Positions 36,001 to 42,000 of a stretch of 64,000 bases of DNA are shown here, in pieces; position 1 is the first letter of the stretch, and each line of letters starts with the position of its first letter. Made by a program: the position numbers. The DNA comes from Phycisphaeraceae bacterium (GTDB taxonomy: Bacteria > Planctomycetota > Phycisphaerae > Phycisphaerales > Phycisphaeraceae), in NCBI GenBank assembly GCA_965222495.1, contig CBDCUA010000005.1, positions 4,606 to 68,605 of the forward strand, read 5' to 3'.

Positions 36001-39000
36001 CCGGGTGGTTGATACTCGTTTTTGCCTCGTTTTTTATTGCGAACAGATCGTGGTAGGCGAGATGTCGGATGTGGAGGAAAGTGTGGAGGTCAAGACAGAA
36101 TTGAGCTATCGATGCGAAGAACGACCTGCTCGAACGAAGGTTCGGACCGTACGCGGATTTTTCCGTATTCCCTACGTACCAAAATGACGCCAGCAAGGGG
36201 CCAATCATGACACCAATTACGTCAAGCTCTAGAAGTTGGACGGTCTTACCGCTGGTCATTCTTCTTTTCAGCAGCTCCGCAGCGGAGGCGCAGCACAGCC
36301 ATCGTATTGAAGAAGTTGAACCTGAGCAGCCGGTTGTCATCGGTCTACGCCGAGACGATAGCAACAGTAAATTGGGCGATTGGAGTTGGCTGGTGCCGCC
36401 CGACACGATTGGAAGGTTAATTAGCGACATCTCCGTGACATATCGACGCTCTCAGACAGACGAAGAGTTTCGTCGTGCCTGCGAGAAGTTGCGTGTCGAT
36501 ATCGGTCGCTTGCAAAGTCTGCAGGAGCAACTGGCTGCGTTTTCCTATCTACTAGGTTTCTCAAGCAACTTGGAACCCGGGTCCCGATATATTCTGTTGA
36601 GCACAATCGGTAATCAAGATATCTCAGCTACACGTCAAGAATTTCAGCGAATGATATACGCCGAACTATGGCGGTTGGTCCTATTGGAGCGCGAGCAGTT
36701 CGGATACCCATTGCCAAGCCAAGAAGATACTCTTCGCGTGAACCCCAAAGATGCGCTCCCGTCTGGAGAGGTGGATAGCATTGACAGACTACGAGAAATA
36801 AAGGAGGCCCTGTCAGAATTCGAACATTCGTTCGATGTCGTGCAATTTCCCAGTCTAGCCATGGCGATTTGGGATAGCTGTTCTACGGAGCAACAACGTT
36901 TCGATGTGTACCTGGCGACAATATATCTAGGATCTCGCGCTCCGGAAGCCGGTAGCATTAGTAGATTCTTTTTAGATAAGGAAGATGGGTATTTCCATGT
37001 CGTTGCAAAACGACACTTTCGTGGTGAAGCGGTCGTGCCCCCGTTACTACGGGATGACCCGAACCCTGTAGCAAAAGAGTATGACGTGCACGACATTCAA
37101 CGCGATCGCAACACGTTTGATGACATCATTCAGGAAATAGAAACTCTTAAGAAAAGAACAAAGGATCTAGAACATAGAGTAGACACGCTAGAAGTCGCGG
37201 TTAGGGTGTTAAAAAAACGAGTAACTGCAGTTGAAGAGAGAGTCAATGAACTAGAAACCAGGGTTGAAGAGGTATATCAGGAACTCAAGGCTGATATAGC
37301 CGAACTTCGCCAGGATGCAATCAATTGGATTCTTAAAGGTAAAATTGATGAAGATGATCGTCCAACGGTAAACGGCCAGCCAGATCGAGATATCGACGGG
37401 ATCGAAGATCCACTCGAAAGGAAATTACTCAAAGATTTTGCGCCGGTTATCCACTACGCCGCAGTTAAAGACATGCCTCGTGCTAAGGCCCATGGGATAC
37501 CGGCCTCTCTTGAATGGTACTTGGCTCGTGTTCAGTTTAATGAAGGAGGTGGAGACGCACGAGTTGAGAATCCTGTTCGTGGGTTAGAAATTATTAGAAA
37601 CCACCGCAAGGCCGGGCAGCCATCTGCCAACTGGAAGCTGGAATGGCACGATCGAGCCAAGATTTGGGGAGATGGTCAGGAGCACGGTCACAACATTGGC
37701 GGGAACCGTGGGATTTATGGACGGGTATGGCGGCCATGGCCCAATACGAATTACTATTCAGTTCAGTACTACGTATTCATGACGTTCAATGAAACAGCCA
37801 TTACCGGTGACGTTGGGAATCACGACGGAGATTGGATCTGTTTAGACTTTGGTGTCGTGCCCGATGAAGCGGATCGTAGAGGGTACAAGATCGTACACGC
37901 AATCTACCATAATCACGGGCGACAGCTTTTCATCCATGGTAAAGCACTAAAACAATGCATCGACGATCAAGGGCATCCGCACGCGTGGCTGGAGCGCCAA
38001 GCCAACGAGCCGTGGCCAAACAAAGGGACTCGCGGAATAGAAGGCTGGCCGAGAGTCGATGGTTTTGCCACTAATATATTCTTCGACCACGAGCCGACCA
38101 AGCAATGGAAGGGGATACCTGTCGAAGCAATGACGAATTGGTTTAGAACCGGTGGACAAAGGCAGACATCCGAATTCAAAGCGGTAAGGCAGCATGGAAT
38201 AGATGAGCTGCGCATCGAATGGCGTCAGTGGCGAACGCAAGACGTTCCTAATCTAGGCGAACGAGCTTGCCAATCTAGCGGCACCGTGGTGGACATGTCT
38301 CTTGATGGCACACGAGGCCAGTTTATCGCTGAGTATGCCGGAACGTGGGGCAGTCACGAGGTACACACAGACGTCCCCAAAGGACCACCATTCAATCTTA
38401 AGATGTGGGATCGGGAATTTGATGGACCGTGGAATCGCAATTCACCTGGCTATGACACCCCAGCGGTAACCGTCGAACGAGACGAGACGCCTCGTTGGAA
38501 ACGGGTGAAGTGCGGTAGCTGGACTCTTTACGTAACCCCTGGCTTTTCGTTCTAGTTTGGTGTCTGCCGTCTGGCGGAAGATCTGCCGAAAACAAATTGT
38601 ATCTCCTTGTCCTTTGAAAGGATCATTGATGAATACCCAAATCTCAAAACTGGGTCTCTGGGGCCTCCTTATCGGAGGCCTGATATTCACCGGGGTTTAT
38701 ACCTGGAGAACCGTTGTTTTTGCTGGACACCATGAGTCGACAGCAGATCCGGTCGTTTCGAATCGCGTACGTGCATTTGAGTTCAGAGAACGGCTGCAGC
38801 GTGTTGAAGACGCCCAATCGAGAATTGTAAGAGGACGGGTACGAGCTACTCAGGCCAGATGGAAGCTCAATCCACAAGCAAAACGTCTTGAACAGATTAT
38901 TTCCGTAAAGTTTGATCCAGCGTTCGAAGAACCACCGCACGCTATTGTCGCACTGACACTGGTCCAAAGCGCAACAACCGCCGATGTTAGCCTCCCCGGC

Positions 39001-42000
39001 GGGAAGGCCAGGAAAGATGGTATGGAAATCGTGTTCATAGCTGGCGATACAGACGATGCGGCGATTCTTGATGCTGAATACCTAGTGATCCCCAAAAACT
39101 TGGGCAATAACGTGAAGATGGTGGACCACCAGAACGGCAATCGAGATTGCATTGTGAGCCGTGATGGAAAAATTATTCAGAAAAGTGAACGTTGGATGGC
39201 GAATTAGATCAGATACCCCCCAGATGGATGAATCACACTGCATCTGATGTGGAGTGTAACCGGTTTATTTTGATAAGACTCTTGCAGTTATGTCCTATCA
39301 CTAGAAAGGATCATCGATGACCACCCAAGCTTCAAGACTAGTTCTTTTTGGCATCCTCATCGGTGGGTTGTTGATCGCCGGCGTACGTGCGTGGAGAAAC
39401 AATATTGTCTACGCCGATCACCATGAGCAGGATCCTAAGATAGCAGCAGTAACAGCTGATCGCTTGCGTGCGATGGAGTTTGAAGAGAATCTACGGCAGC
39501 TTCAACAGGAACTGGCGGAGTTGAACGAGAGGTTAAAGGACCCCGTGTTTTCACGGATACGCATCGGAAACGCTGGGGTGATCACGCACAGTGGCGATAG
39601 CATGCGCATCAATACTTCTGTCCTTACAATCGGAAGCGAAGTCGATGCCGAGGGCTCGCCTGGGGCAAGAATCGACTTGCTAAATGGTAGGGGGAATAAC
39701 GGCCGAGTCCATCTCAGTGTAAATAGCACCGGGACAGGCTCGATTCTCATCGCGAATGACAATACCGACGCTGTGGAATTGGAACCTCTCGGGGCTAGGT
39801 TGTTCTCCAGGTGGGGCGTAAAAGGCCAAACAAAAAAGAGAAAGCCCTTGAACGTTAGTCAACCTACGGTTGACGATATGAGCCGATTGGGAGATGCAAG
39901 TTAAGTCCGAGGCGCACTTCCGCCGTGTTGTGTGTTGATACGACATACTCGAAACAGAGATTTGTTTTCTTCAACAGGAGATTACGCAATGCGATCCATA
40001 TTTGTTGTCACTATGGCAGCCGTGACTATCGGCGGGTTGGTGGTGGTGTCGCCCATACTAGGAGGGTCATCCGATCCAGATTTTGCTGGGCCCGTCGTTC
40101 GACGCGCTTTTCATGAACGATTGCAAAGGCTAGAAGAAACCTTATTCCGTTCTGTTAGTGGCGTCGTGCGCTTTGAAAAAGCGTATCTGGACCTGAGTGA
40201 AAACGAAACCCACGCAAATGACGGCTGGTTTGAAGCCGTTCGAAAGATTCAGTTTAACCCTCCGTTTGATCGAACGCCGCTGATATCGGTTTCACTGACA
40301 ATGGTCGAGGGTAACCATAACGTTGTTGCGCGTCCTGATGTCGAAGCGTTTGTCCACAATGAGACTGCCGAGGGGATGGAAATACGATTGATGGCCAGAA
40401 ACAAGGAAGCGTTTAATCGAGTGGATGTCAGCTATATGGTCGTGCCTTTGCCCGCCAGCGTTACATCCAAACATCACCCTTACGGTGAGCCGGGTGTGCA
40501 CGGAGGTGATATTGATTGCATGGTGATCGTGGATGGGAAAGTGGCTCAAGAGGCCAAGGCCATGCAACACGAATAATGGGTAGTAGCCGCTACTTTCTAG
40601 TTCCTAGTGGTCCGTTTGATGTGCACTTTGATGACGGGTATAGGCCACAAGGCCAAAGCACTACGTCATCTGACACATGAGCTATCTGTGGCCAGCTGTA
40701 GCGCTGGATCTACGCCATTGAGCTAAAAAAATTGGCCAAATTGAGCGCAAGCTTCACGCGAGGCTGGCGTTGAAGGTGCCGCGACACGATCGTTGCCGTT
40801 TGAGACGCAGATCCTCGAGCGATACAGACATCGCTTCGGCCATCGCCATAATGCACTGACGCACATCTTGGGGCAGACCCGACCACACTTGAATCAAGCG
40901 TCTCAGATCAGAGGCCAGTGCGCCGTATTCTGCGCCGCTTGATTCAGAAAGTATCTTTTTCTCGGCATTTTCGCCAGGTGTTCGAGTCCTGTATCGCCCA
41001 TTGGGCAAAATGTTGCGAGAACGGATATTAGAATTTCCGTTGACGTTCGGCGACGCAAGCTGAAACGAGTCAAAAACCCGGTACATGCCGGATTTCAATG
41101 TATTGGAAAACACCCCGTTAAGACGAGTCCCCAAGTAGCGCCGGCACTAGACCTCGATTCCTGCGGTCATCACGCTCCACGAAAAGGACTATGATCGCGC
41201 ACGCTTCTAGCTGATCTCATGCGTACAACACAGAGCCGCCGCCTTCAGCCGATTTGAGGATCGAGCAGATCTTACTTTCCGTGTGGGCACGGTCACATTG
41301 TTTCTCATAGTGTTCTTATTGAATCTGCCATTTATCGCCGGGCCATTTGGGATGAATCCCGACCCAAGCCAGGCGCCGTTCAATATGCCGGAGCTACGGT
41401 GGTATTTGGATATCCGTTCTTCTTGGCGTTAATGGTTGGCGTCGTTCTAGGGCAGATCCTATTTTTCAGACGTAAAGGGTAGTTGGAAGCATATAAGAAA
41501 ATGAAGTAAAGTCGTGGTCAACATCACCTTACGGGGCATGGCCTAAAGACTGCTGTTGTGAAGCGTATCGTACGGACGGCAAAATTTGAGATCTGCTTTT
41601 CTTACATTGAGGAAGGCCCCGCGAGCCGTCTGGGGCAAGATGTTACAAATCGCCGTTCATCCCAGCGGGCTCATCGCTATCAATTTCTCGCTCTGTGACA
41701 GCGATATTGGTTGCCAGATCATCGCGGAGTCGATGACCGAGGCTTGTGCCAGGAACCTCCTGTAGGGCTTTGCGAACTTTACGCAAAGATTGAGTGGGCA
41801 CCGCAATATGACAGACAGGTTCGCCAGGTTTTGCTACGGGAAGTGTTGTCATTCCCAAGACGATGCCATCAACTGGTGATGTCAGCACATTCTGTTCTTT
41901 GCCAAACACGCTTACATTGGTCGCGATCGGTTCGCCCTTTTTAATAGGGTGGCCTGGGGAAACATGGAACCGTAGTATGCCACCAACTTCCGATCGCGCC

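What the first reader, a model, noticed from the sequence alone, without database searches (positions are those of the whole stretch)
38629..40576. Three anchored paralogs are mosaics: A and B share the N-module, A and C share the C-domain
A (38629-39207) and B (39317-39904) have nearly identical initiation regions (gaaaggatcatTgatga vs gaaaggatcatCgatga). Their N-termini are also similar: M(N/T)TQ.S+L.L.G(L/I)LIGGL(I/L), then WR..V(F/Y)A.HHE, then R(A)(F/M)EF.E.L(Q/R). Their C-terminal halves are unrelated; B reads RIRIGNAGVITHSGDSMRINTSVLTIGSEVDAEG... A and C (39989-40576) instead share the C-terminal domain: FEFRERLQRVE/AFHERLQRLEE, (K/Q)F(D/N)P.F(E/D)..P..(V/S).LT(L/M)V, GMEI and (E/S)Y(L/M)V(I/V)P. 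That pattern is reminiscent of H-type lectin domains (Fp.pF..pP.V.l.l...GF.....v.W.A). Module shuffling within one locus is typical of diversifying surface or recognition proteins.
Basis: seen in the sequence. Interest (0 to 1): 0.6.

Follow-up and report, generated by a model that had tools for sequence, protein, structure and literature searches.

The report
Anchored lectin-like paralog trio, one domain-swapped
Three small neighbouring genes in a decayed genomic island encode proteins with related membrane-anchor ends; two carry a snail-lectin-type (H-type lectin) binding head and the third carries an unrelated head, which makes them a real but fairly ordinary lineage-specific family of probable envelope binding proteins.

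Summary

- **A and B:** A (38629-39207) and B (39317-39904) share only an N-terminal module of about 65 residues (48% identity, E 5e-16). They also share a 16/17-identical ribosome-binding and start region.
- **A and C:** A and C (39989-40576) are homologous over almost their whole length (27% identity, E 2e-16).
- **B and C:** They show no BLAST similarity. A profile comparison links only their N-modules.
- **Lectin guess:** The H-type lectin guess is right. C passes the Pfam cut-off for PF09458 (29.2 vs 24 bits). A model of C finds Helix pomatia agglutinin, SLL-2 and discoidin II as its top PDB matches.
- **B's C-terminal half:** It is an orphan β-rich domain. It is neither an H-lectin nor a frameshifted one.
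- **Relatives:** All three proteins, and the 782-aa secreted coiled-coil protein encoded just upstream, have no detectable relatives in any collection searched. "Diversifying selection" therefore cannot be tested.
- **Age of the swap:** The A/B module is only 64% identical in DNA, so the swap is old.
- **Location:** The locus lies in an integrase-less, low-GC segment (34806-41001) of a tandem island array at tRNA-Val.

Most likely these are membrane-tethered extracytoplasmic binding proteins with interchangeable heads. Topology and ligand are inferred, not shown. Interest is modest.

The parts
27937..28011 (+). tRNA-Val(TAC), integration target of the island array
   Evidence: ARAGORN; Rfam tRNA 74.3 bits
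34760..34805 (+). Exact 46-nt copy of the tRNA-Val 3' end (27969-28014). It is the distal junction of island segment 1 and the proximal edge of the segment that carries the locus.
   Evidence: family D7, 100% identity
35108..35890 (-). Divergent LuxR/GerE-type HTH regulator, 260 aa from the MNTSNRL start. The longer ORF to 36430 overlaps the next gene and is unlikely to be used.
   Evidence: Pfam GerE 20.8 bits, below the cut-off; start located
36207..38555 (+). First gene of the probable operon: a 782-aa orphan protein. It has a classical cleavable signal peptide (…SSSAAEA|QH), a coiled coil at about residues 290-375, and a 400-aa C-domain of unknown fold.
   Evidence: Only coiled-coil noise in Pfam, PHROGs, NCBIfam and PADLOC. 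The C-domain has no Pfam hit and no Vps62 hit. No relatives in 400 phylum genomes, metagenome, viral or plasmid collections.
38617..38631 (+). Conserved Shine-Dalgarno and start region of A (GAAAGGATCATTGATG)
   Evidence: Read; 16/17 identical to the region before B
38629..39207 (+). Gene A, 192 aa. Hydrophobic anchor at residues 8-26 (38650-38706), HHE motif, helix, then an H-lectin-like domain (Pfam stretch residues 92-139 = 38902-39045, homology to C up to about residue 154), and a C-terminal β-hairpin tail with the single Cys174.
   Evidence: (H_lectin 14 bits, sub-threshold)
39305..39319 (+). Conserved Shine-Dalgarno and start region of B (GAAAGGATCATCGATG), preceded by an in-frame TAG
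39317..39511 (+). Gene B N-module (residues 1-65): anchor at residues 8-26, HHE motif and helix; 48% identical to A
   Evidence: (helices 4-33 and 40-73 with pLDDT 73-87)
39539..39904 (+). Gene B C-terminal orphan β-rich domain (residues 75-195) plus the stop codon. It is unrelated to the H-lectin domain.
   Evidence: No hit in Pfam, PHROGs, NCBIfam, PADLOC or PDB. hhalign against the H-lectin profile gives probability 0.25%. Not a frameshifted lectin. No internal repeat. AF2 pLDDT below 50.
39989..40576 (+). Gene C, 195 aa. Anchor at residues 3-25 (39995-40063), helix 35-52, H-type lectin domain at residues 85-150 (40241-40438), and a C-terminal β-hairpin tail with the single Cys177.
   Evidence: Pfam PF09458 29.2 bits against a cut-off of 24; 31.5 bits six-frame; AF2 model; Foldseek hits to HPA, SLL-2 and discoidin II
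40917..41024 (+). 108-nt repeat (96% identical to 48693-48800) that holds a degenerate tRNA-Val 3' end (40979-41001, 2 mismatches). It marks the distal edge of the island segment carrying the locus.
   Evidence: family D5

Best explanation
A, B and C form a lineage-specific tandem family of small single-pass proteins. Each has an N-terminal hydrophobic signal-anchor and a short helical stalk, which together present a C-terminal binding head outside the cytoplasm.

A and C are full-length paralogs whose head is an H-type lectin domain followed by a conserved Cys-containing β-hairpin. By analogy with every solved H-type lectin, this head should trimerise and bind its ligand (a glycan, or a peptide) at the protomer interfaces.

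B arose from an A-like copy. It kept the ribosome-binding site, anchor, HHE motif and stalk, but its head was replaced by an unrelated β-rich domain of unknown fold.

The three genes are probably co-transcribed with the upstream 782-aa Sec-exported coiled-coil protein. A divergent LuxR-type regulator sits beside them. Together they form the orphan cargo of an integrase-less, low-GC segment of a tandem tRNA-Val island array.

Shown here: the paralogy pattern, the H-lectin domain, the hydrophobic N-termini and the island context. Inferred: the N-in/C-out topology, trimerisation, ligand binding, and the operon and partnership with the 782-aa protein.
For: - Paralogy.
- Purifying pattern in the A/B module: third codon positions differ at 0.50 per site, first and second positions at 0.29 per site.
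- H-lectin sequence: Pfam score above the cut-off for C and in the six-frame own-genome search.
- H-lectin fold: the top six PDB matches are all H-type lectins (E 1e-5 to 8e-4, TM-score on the target 0.67-0.74). Next come phage tailspike and pyocin fibre C-terminal lectin-fold domains.
- Viral matches: BFVD hits are small phage 'H-type lectin domain' and minor tail proteins made of a helix plus a head.
- Scaffold residues: F..pF, P, G(F/M) and (Y/W)xxA/V align with eight other H-lectin copies from the phylum.
- Anchor: 19-residue windows have Kyte-Doolittle means of 1.6-2.25 and summed Hessa-scale ΔG of 0.4-1.4. The cleavable signal peptide of the 782-aa protein scores 5.7. AF2 gives a confident helix at B 4-33.
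- Operon: same strand, gaps of 73, 109 and 84 nt, Shine-Dalgarno sequences, and no convincing terminator between the genes.
- Island. GC is 0.506 against 0.562 for the genome.
Against: - No topology predictor was available. Flanking charges favour N-in for C (R2 before the anchor; D29 and D31 after). They are balanced for A and slightly reversed for B (R7 before; R24 and R27 after).
- VFA|G and VYA|D after the hydrophobic stretch could be signal-peptidase sites, which would make A and B soluble.
- A alone is below the Pfam cut-off (14 bits).
- The model of C has only moderate confidence (pLDDT 57, domain 55-81) and rests on a two-sequence alignment.
- The Trp of the canonical tW(R/N)D loop seen in a strong H-lectin copy is absent from A and C, so sugar binding is not assured. 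CofB's H-lectin domain binds a peptide, not GalNAc (PMC6048534).
- Dictyostelium discoidins are cytosolic H-type lectins, so the fold itself does not prove export.
Confidence: 0.6

Rival explanations
1. Docking platform rather than lectin. The H-lectin heads of A and C trimerise and capture a peptide segment of the co-encoded 782-aa secreted protein at the trimer interfaces, holding it at the membrane. This is how the H-lectin domain of the minor pilin CofB anchors the operon-encoded secreted protein CofJ. B would dock a different partner, or a different region of the same one.
For: - The CofB H-lectin trimer binds the CofJ N-terminal peptide in the expected GalNAc pocket and does not bind GalNAc (PMC6048534).
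- Here too a Sec-exported protein is encoded in the same apparent operon.
- The canonical Trp-containing loop is not conserved in A and C.
- All four proteins are orphans confined to the same island segment.
Against: There is no direct evidence of interaction. No multimer modelling was possible. A, B and C are not pilins, as they lack a class III signal peptide (G|FTLxE). Co-location in a tiny island segment could be coincidental.
Confidence: 0.15
2. Toxin and immunity cassette. The 782-aa exported protein is an envelope-acting toxin, and A, B and C are an array of membrane-tethered periplasmic immunity proteins, which typically occur as tandem, partly mosaic paralogs downstream of the toxin gene.
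For: The gene order is one large exported protein followed by three small anchored proteins on a mobile island. The sequences are orphan and fast-evolving.
Against: No toxin, secretion-system or immunity family was found in Pfam, NCBIfam, PHROGs or PADLOC. An H-type lectin fold is not a known immunity fold. The large protein uses a plain Sec signal peptide, and no delivery machinery lies nearby.
Confidence: 0.08
3. Relics of phage or tailocin receptor-binding proteins. Helix-plus-H-lectin fibre genes with exchangeable heads were left behind in a decayed integrated element and have no current cellular role.
For: - Structural neighbours include phage tailspike C-domains, the R1 pyocin fibre, and many small phage 'H-type lectin domain' or minor tail proteins.
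- A shared N-module with exchangeable heads is the usual design of phage receptor-binding proteins.
- The locus lies in a tRNA-linked island array with an integrase 7 kb away.
Against: - Strongly hydrophobic N-termini are not a feature of tail fibres.
- There are no PHROG hits and no tblastn hit in 50,697 phage records.
- The segment holds no capsid, tail, baseplate or lysis gene.
- The reading frames are intact, and substitutions between A and B look purifying.
Confidence: 0.1
4. Reverse topology. The short N-tail is translocated and the heads stay in the cytoplasm, tethered to the inner face of the membrane, as cytosolic H-type lectins like the discoidins are.
For: B has two Arg (R24, R27) directly after the hydrophobic stretch and one (R7) before it. 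Discoidins are cytosolic H-type lectins (bioRxiv 10.64898/2026.06.18.733164, listed).
Against: C has R2 before the hydrophobic stretch and acidic residues after it. A longer alternative start for A or C would add more positive charge at the N-terminus. The partner gene encodes an exported protein. Bacterial and phage H-lectin domains are otherwise extracellular.
Confidence: 0.07

Closest known systems
H-type lectins (Pfam PF09458): Helix pomatia agglutinin (2CCV/2CE6), Helix aspersa agglutinin (4Q56), coral SLL-2 (3WMP), Dictyostelium discoidin I/II (2W94, 2VM9)
   Same: C scores above the Pfam cut-off, and a model of C matches these structures first (TM-score on the target 0.67-0.74). The scaffold motifs F.pF..P, G(F/M) and (Y/W)xxA/V are kept in A and C.
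   Different: - Sequence identity is only 16-19%.
- A and C have an N-terminal hydrophobic anchor, a helical stalk and a 40-residue C-terminal hairpin with one conserved Cys.
- The Trp-containing loop of canonical copies is not conserved.
- Sugar binding and trimer formation are untested.
- No sequence relatives exist outside this genome.
CofB minor pilin of ETEC CFA/III type IVb pilus, with its C-terminal H-type lectin domain (PMC6048534)
   Same: It is a bacterial protein with a hydrophobic N-terminal helix and a C-terminal H-lectin domain. It is encoded in one operon with a secreted protein that its lectin trimer anchors.
   Different: CofB is a 500-aa pilin with a class III signal peptide, a pilin domain and β-repeat domains, and it is assembled by a pilus machine. 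None of these features is present here.
Phage and tailocin receptor-binding proteins with lectin-fold heads (phi297 gp61 4RU5, LKA1 gp49 4RU4, AP22 gp54 4Y9V, R1 pyocin fibre 6CXB/PMC6363177; P. acnes phage gp17, PMC3094311)
   Same: A helical or trimeric stalk is followed by an H-lectin-like head. Families share N-terminal modules and exchange heads. They sit in mobile-element contexts.
   Different: Those proteins have no membrane anchor and attach to a baseplate. Here there is no sequence similarity to any phage record and there are no phage structural genes.
Tandem arrays of tRNA-gene-integrated genomic islands
   Same: The tRNA-Val 3' end is repeated exactly at 34760-34805 and degenerately at 40979-41001 and 48755-48777. 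An integrase lies next to the tRNA. GC is low.
   Different: The segment holding A, B and C has no integrase of its own, and its cargo is entirely orphan.

Membership tests
H-type lectin domain (PF09458), protein C | Profile HMM score at or above the curated gathering cut-off (24 bits) | tested here: met
   29.2 bits, E 1e-6, profile positions 2-65 of 67; 31.5 bits in the six-frame search of the own genome
H-type lectin domain (PF09458), protein A | Profile HMM score at or above the cut-off, or significant homology to a member across the domain | tested here: inconclusive
   A alone scores 14 bits, below the cut-off. However, A aligns with C across the whole domain (E 2e-16 pairwise; C-domain alone 1.6e-6 genome-wide). 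Membership therefore follows by transitivity only.
H-type lectin domain (PF09458), proteins A and C | The β-sandwich fold of Helix pomatia agglutinin | tested here: met
   The AF2 model of C (pLDDT 57; domain 55-81) matches 2CE6, 4Q56, 2CGY, 2CCV, 3WMP and 2VM9 as its top six PDB hits (E 1e-5 to 8e-4). Model confidence is moderate.
H-type lectin domain (PF09458), proteins A and C | Homotrimer with ligand sites at the protomer interfaces | not testable with these tools
   No multimer prediction or experiment was available. The helix before the domain has 8 of 12 hydrophobic a/d positions in its best heptad register, which is only suggestive.
H-type lectin domain (PF09458), proteins A and C | Conserved GalNAc/Gal-binding residues | tested here: inconclusive
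   In an alignment with eight H-lectin copies from the phylum, the Trp of the tW(R/N)D loop in the strongest canonical copy is absent from A and C. No residue-level alignment to HPA could be obtained.
H-type lectin domain (PF09458), protein B | Any profile or fold similarity to the domain | tested here: not met
   No Pfam hit. hhalign against a 10-sequence H-lectin profile gives probability 0.25%. No frame of B's 3' half matches A or C.
Type IV (b) minor pilins such as CofB | Class III signal peptide (short basic leader, G|F/M-T-L-x-E) and a pilin fold | tested here: not met
   The N-termini read MNTQISKLGLWG…, MTTQASRLVLFG… and MRSIFVVTMAAV…. There is no G|FTLxE motif and no pilin family in Pfam.
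Phage tail fibre or minor tail proteins | Sequence membership in a phage protein family and neighbouring virion genes | tested here: not met
   No PHROG hit, no tblastn hit in 50,697 phage records and no relatives in viral contigs. The neighbours are a regulator and an orphan secreted protein.
tRNA-integrated genomic island | Direct repeat of the tRNA 3' end bounding the element; tyrosine integrase next to the tRNA | tested here: met
   Exact 46-nt repeat at 27969-28014 and 34760-34805. Degenerate copies at 40979-41001 and 48755-48777. Phage_integrase family gene at 28125-29426. The segment carrying A, B and C has junction remnants but no integrase.
Polymorphic toxin and immunity cassette | Recognisable toxin, delivery or immunity domain | tested here: not met
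   None found in Pfam, NCBIfam, PHROGs or PADLOC for the 782-aa protein or for A, B and C
Vps62/DUF946 (PF06101), upstream 782-aa protein | Profile HMM match | tested here: not met
   No Pfam hit at E <= 1 for the C-terminal 402 aa. No PF06101 match at E <= 10 anywhere in the genome.

The most novel reading that the evidence does not exclude
The island segment encodes a self-contained, previously unseen surface module. Three membrane-tethered trimeric stalks share an anchor but carry different heads: two diverged H-lectin heads and one new β-fold. They capture and display the co-encoded 782-aa secreted coiled-coil protein, or different ligands, at the envelope. This would be a pilus-independent version of the CofB-CofJ principle, and B's head would be a new fold family.
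Probability: 0.15. Interest if true: 0.55.

Novelty: new variant of a known kind. Interest (0 to 1): 0.3.

Why it matters
If the reading is right, the locus adds a compact bacterial architecture to the H-type lectin family, which has mostly been studied in snails, corals, slime moulds and phage fibres. The architecture is signal-anchor, stalk, H-lectin head and Cys hairpin. The locus also gives a clean natural example of head replacement on a conserved anchor-and-stalk module. B's head and the 782-aa protein are sequence orphans across billions of proteins, so they are candidates for new folds. Beyond that the finding is mainly descriptive. There is no phenotype, no relatives with which to study diversification, and no link to a long-standing open question.

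Tried and rejected
1. **Word-indexed homolog searches.** A, B and C each returned only themselves in 5.8 billion proteins.
2. **Exhaustive phmmer of B against 1.84 billion representatives.** Besides A, it gave only P0004-P0007. These are tandem-repeat giants whose scores are sums of many weak repeat matches (pairwise E 1e-4 to 0.3). 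They were rejected as chance.
3. **Six-frame searches of 60 relatives.** These found nothing for A. For B there was one weak hit that turned out to be the FliD flagellar cap protein, matching on composition. Rejected.
4. **Pattern scans.** The A+C profile found nothing in metagenome or viral contigs. The 782-aa protein found nothing in genome, metagenome or viral contigs, and a separate tblastn search found nothing in plasmid records.
5. **B's C-domain.**
   - The single-sequence AF2 model has pLDDT below 50, and Foldseek gave nothing.
   - There is no internal repeat.
   - It is not a frameshifted or inverted H-lectin.
   - There is no profile similarity to H-lectin.
6. **Vps62/DUF946 idea for the 782-aa protein.** No HMM match.
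7. **Defence-system reading.** PADLOC gave only coiled-coil noise.
8. **H-lectin copies elsewhere in the phylum.** Found in 8 of 301 genomes. Those located lie mostly in open frames of 679 to over 4,000 aa; of the two short ones read, neither shows the anchor-stalk-lectin layout.
9. **Naming the organism.** This failed because own-genome records are withheld. PheT is about equally distant from Pseudomonas, E. coli, Staphylococcus and Thermus, so the phylum has no close PheT in the PDB.

Full report
**Observation**

Three co-oriented ORFs lie at 38629-39207 (A, 192 aa), 39317-39904 (B, 195 aa) and 39989-40576 (C, 195 aa).

The stretches before the A and B start codons, GAAAGGATCATTGATGA and GAAAGGATCATCGATGA, are 16/17 identical. 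In B an in-frame TAG lies five codons upstream of the ATG, so that ATG must be the start. The conserved AAAGGA then acts as the ribosome-binding site, and the same start is the sensible choice for A, even though A's ORF could be extended to a TTG at 38557.

Pairwise comparisons give the following.
- **A-B:** 48% identity, confined to residues 1-65 (E 5e-16).
- **A-C:** 27% identity over A 10-187 (E 2e-16).
- **B-C:** nothing.

Against the whole genome in six frames, the A/B module scores 5e-13 and the A/C C-domain 1.6e-6. There are no further paralogs. A profile of A+C aligned to B matches only the N-module (C 3-51 = B 4-65, probability 82%).

One correction applies: A and C are full-length paralogs, and C carries a more diverged N-module with a roughly 10-residue deletion that removes the HHE motif.

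**Domains**

Each protein begins with a strongly hydrophobic stretch. The best 19-residue windows have Kyte-Doolittle means of 1.6-2.25. Simple sums on the Hessa biological scale (values recalled from memory) are 0.4-1.4, against 5.7 for the obviously cleavable signal peptide of the upstream 782-aa protein. AlphaFold models B residues 4-33 and 40-73 as confident helices.

The C-terminal head of C is an H-type lectin domain.
- Pfam PF09458 scores 29.2 bits against a cut-off of 24, and 31.5 bits in the six-frame genome search.
- A model of C built with A as its only alignment partner has pLDDT 57, with 55-81 in the domain.
- The top six PDB matches to that model are Helix pomatia agglutinin, Helix aspersa agglutinin, coral SLL-2 and discoidin II (E 1e-5 to 8e-4, TM-score on the target 0.67-0.74).
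- The next matches are the C-terminal lectin-fold domains of phage tailspikes and the R1 pyocin fibre.
- In the viral structure library the best matches are small phage 'H-type lectin domain' or minor tail proteins of 100-160 aa.

A alone is below the Pfam cut-off (14 bits) but is homologous to C across the domain.

Aligned with eight other H-lectin copies from the phylum, A and C keep the scaffold positions (F.pF, P, G-F/M, Y/W-x-x-A/V). They lack the Trp-containing loop seen in the strongest canonical copy.

Both A and C add a 40-residue C-terminal β-hairpin with a conserved G-x-x-D-C-(I/M)-V…D-G-K motif and the only Cys of each protein.

**B's head**

Residues 75-195 of B have no match in Pfam, PHROGs, NCBIfam, PADLOC or PDB sequences.
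- There is no profile similarity to H-lectin (probability 0.25%).
- There is no significant internal repeat.
- The AlphaFold model is unusable (pLDDT below 50; Foldseek found nothing).
- No other reading frame or strand of B's 3' half resembles A or C, so the head is not an overprinted lectin.

The A/B module is 64% identical in DNA. Third codon positions differ more (0.50 per site) than first and second positions (0.29 per site). This points to an old duplication under purifying selection, not a recent recombination.

The simplest history is as follows. An anchor-stalk-lectin gene duplicated to give the A and C lineages. Later an A-type 5' end, including its ribosome-binding site, became joined to an unrelated 3' sequence to give B.

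**Orphan status**

- Word-indexed searches of 5.8 billion proteins returned only the queries themselves.
- An exhaustive phmmer of B against 1.84 billion representatives returned A plus four tandem-repeat giants whose scores are sums of weak repeat matches. These are not homologs.
- Sixty related genomes lack the genes. The single weak hit was FliD.
- The A+C profile found nothing in metagenome or viral contigs, and nothing in phage records.
- The H-lectin domain is rare in the phylum (8 of 301 genomes). Most located copies lie in open frames of 679 to over 4,000 aa, and the two short ones read show no anchor-stalk layout.

**Context**

A tRNA-Val gene (27937-28011) is followed by a tyrosine integrase (28125-29426). 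An exact 46-nt copy of the tRNA 3' end lies at 34760-34805. Degenerate copies of the same tRNA end lie at 40979-41001 and 48755-48777, inside a 108-nt repeat pair.

The locus thus occupies the middle, integrase-less segment (34806-41001; GC 0.506 against 0.562 for the genome) of a tandem island array. An earlier follow-up in this scan reached the same conclusion.

That segment holds only the following.
- A divergent LuxR/GerE-type regulator (35108-35890, weak Pfam hit).
- A 782-aa protein with a classical signal peptide, a coiled coil and a 400-aa C-domain.
- A, B and C.

The 782-aa protein is also an orphan. Its suggested Vps62 likeness is not borne out by the HMM.

The gaps between the four plus-strand genes are 73, 109 and 84 nt, with no convincing terminator. 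This is consistent with one operon, but it is not proof.

**How it most likely works**

The best reading is a set of membrane-tethered, extracytoplasmic binding proteins: a signal-anchor, a helical stalk and a head. For A and C the head is an H-type lectin fold. In all solved cases that fold trimerises and binds its ligand at the protomer interfaces. B presents a different head on the same anchor and stalk.

The ligand is open. It could be a glycan, the classic GalNAc-type role. It could also be a peptide: the H-lectin trimer of CofB binds the N-terminal peptide of the operon-encoded secreted protein CofJ and does not bind GalNAc (PMC6048534). Since a secreted protein is co-encoded here, docking of that protein is a live alternative.

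Topology is the weakest link. Flanking charges favour N-in for C, are balanced for A, and lean the other way for B. VFA|G and VYA|D could be signal-peptidase sites. Discoidins show that H-type lectins can be cytosolic.

The rival readings are a toxin-immunity cassette, phage fibre relics and reverse topology. Each lacks positive evidence.

**Verdict**

The anchoring is plausible. The 'diversifying shuffling' gloss is untested, and what is present looks like one old head replacement.

This is a new architectural variant and a very divergent branch of a known domain family, sitting in orphan island cargo. It is a tidy result of modest interest.

Noticed in passing
window 27937-48800: Tandem island array at tRNA-Val. 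An exact 46-nt repeat of the tRNA 3' end lies at 34760-34805. Degenerate copies at 40979-41001 and 48755-48777 sit inside a 108-nt repeat pair that is 96% identical. Only the first segment keeps an integrase (28125-29426). GC is 0.476, 0.506 and 0.518 in the three segments, against 0.562 for the genome.
   Followed up: yes
window 36207-38555: A 782-aa orphan protein with a signal peptide, a coiled coil at about residues 290-375, and a His/Trp-rich 400-aa C-domain (NHDGDWICLDF, HAIYHNHG). It has no relatives in any collection and no Vps62/DUF946 HMM match, despite motif-level resemblance noted by another reader.
   Followed up: partly
window 38725-38733 and 39416-39424: A and B keep an identical His-His-Glu triplet just after the hydrophobic segment (…VFAGHHE / …VYADHHE). 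If the proteins were cleaved after VFA or VYA, His would fall at position 3 of the mature N-terminus, as in an ATCUN-type metal site. C lacks the motif. This is speculative.
   Followed up: no
window 35108-36430 (-): The 440-aa ORF overlaps the start of the 782-aa gene by 224 nt. The probable real gene is a 260-aa LuxR/GerE-type regulator starting at 35890, leaving a 316-nt divergent intergenic region.
   Followed up: partly
window 49108-51399: A 763-aa protein made of about 20 HEAT/PBS-lyase-type repeats. At the DNA level the repeats are still recognisable, with a period of 96-105 nt and up to 89% identity between neighbours.
   Followed up: no
window 55205-57319: The PheT (phenylalanyl-tRNA synthetase beta) homolog is 704 aa and aligns to PDB homologs only from their residue 150 or so onward. 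It therefore lacks the N-terminal domain (about 90 aa) present in the E. coli, Pseudomonas, Staphylococcus and Thermus enzymes.
   Followed up: no
window 25325-26803: An IS-type transposase (rve integrase core plus HTH_21) sits immediately upstream of the tRNA-Val island array.
   Followed up: no
L017 1489-1962 (-) (genome G157): A small 157-aa protein ends in an H-lectin domain (25.6 bits). It lies in a high-GC region whose overlapping ORFs could not be interpreted. This is another small H-lectin protein in the same phylum, without the anchor and stalk seen here.
   Followed up: no
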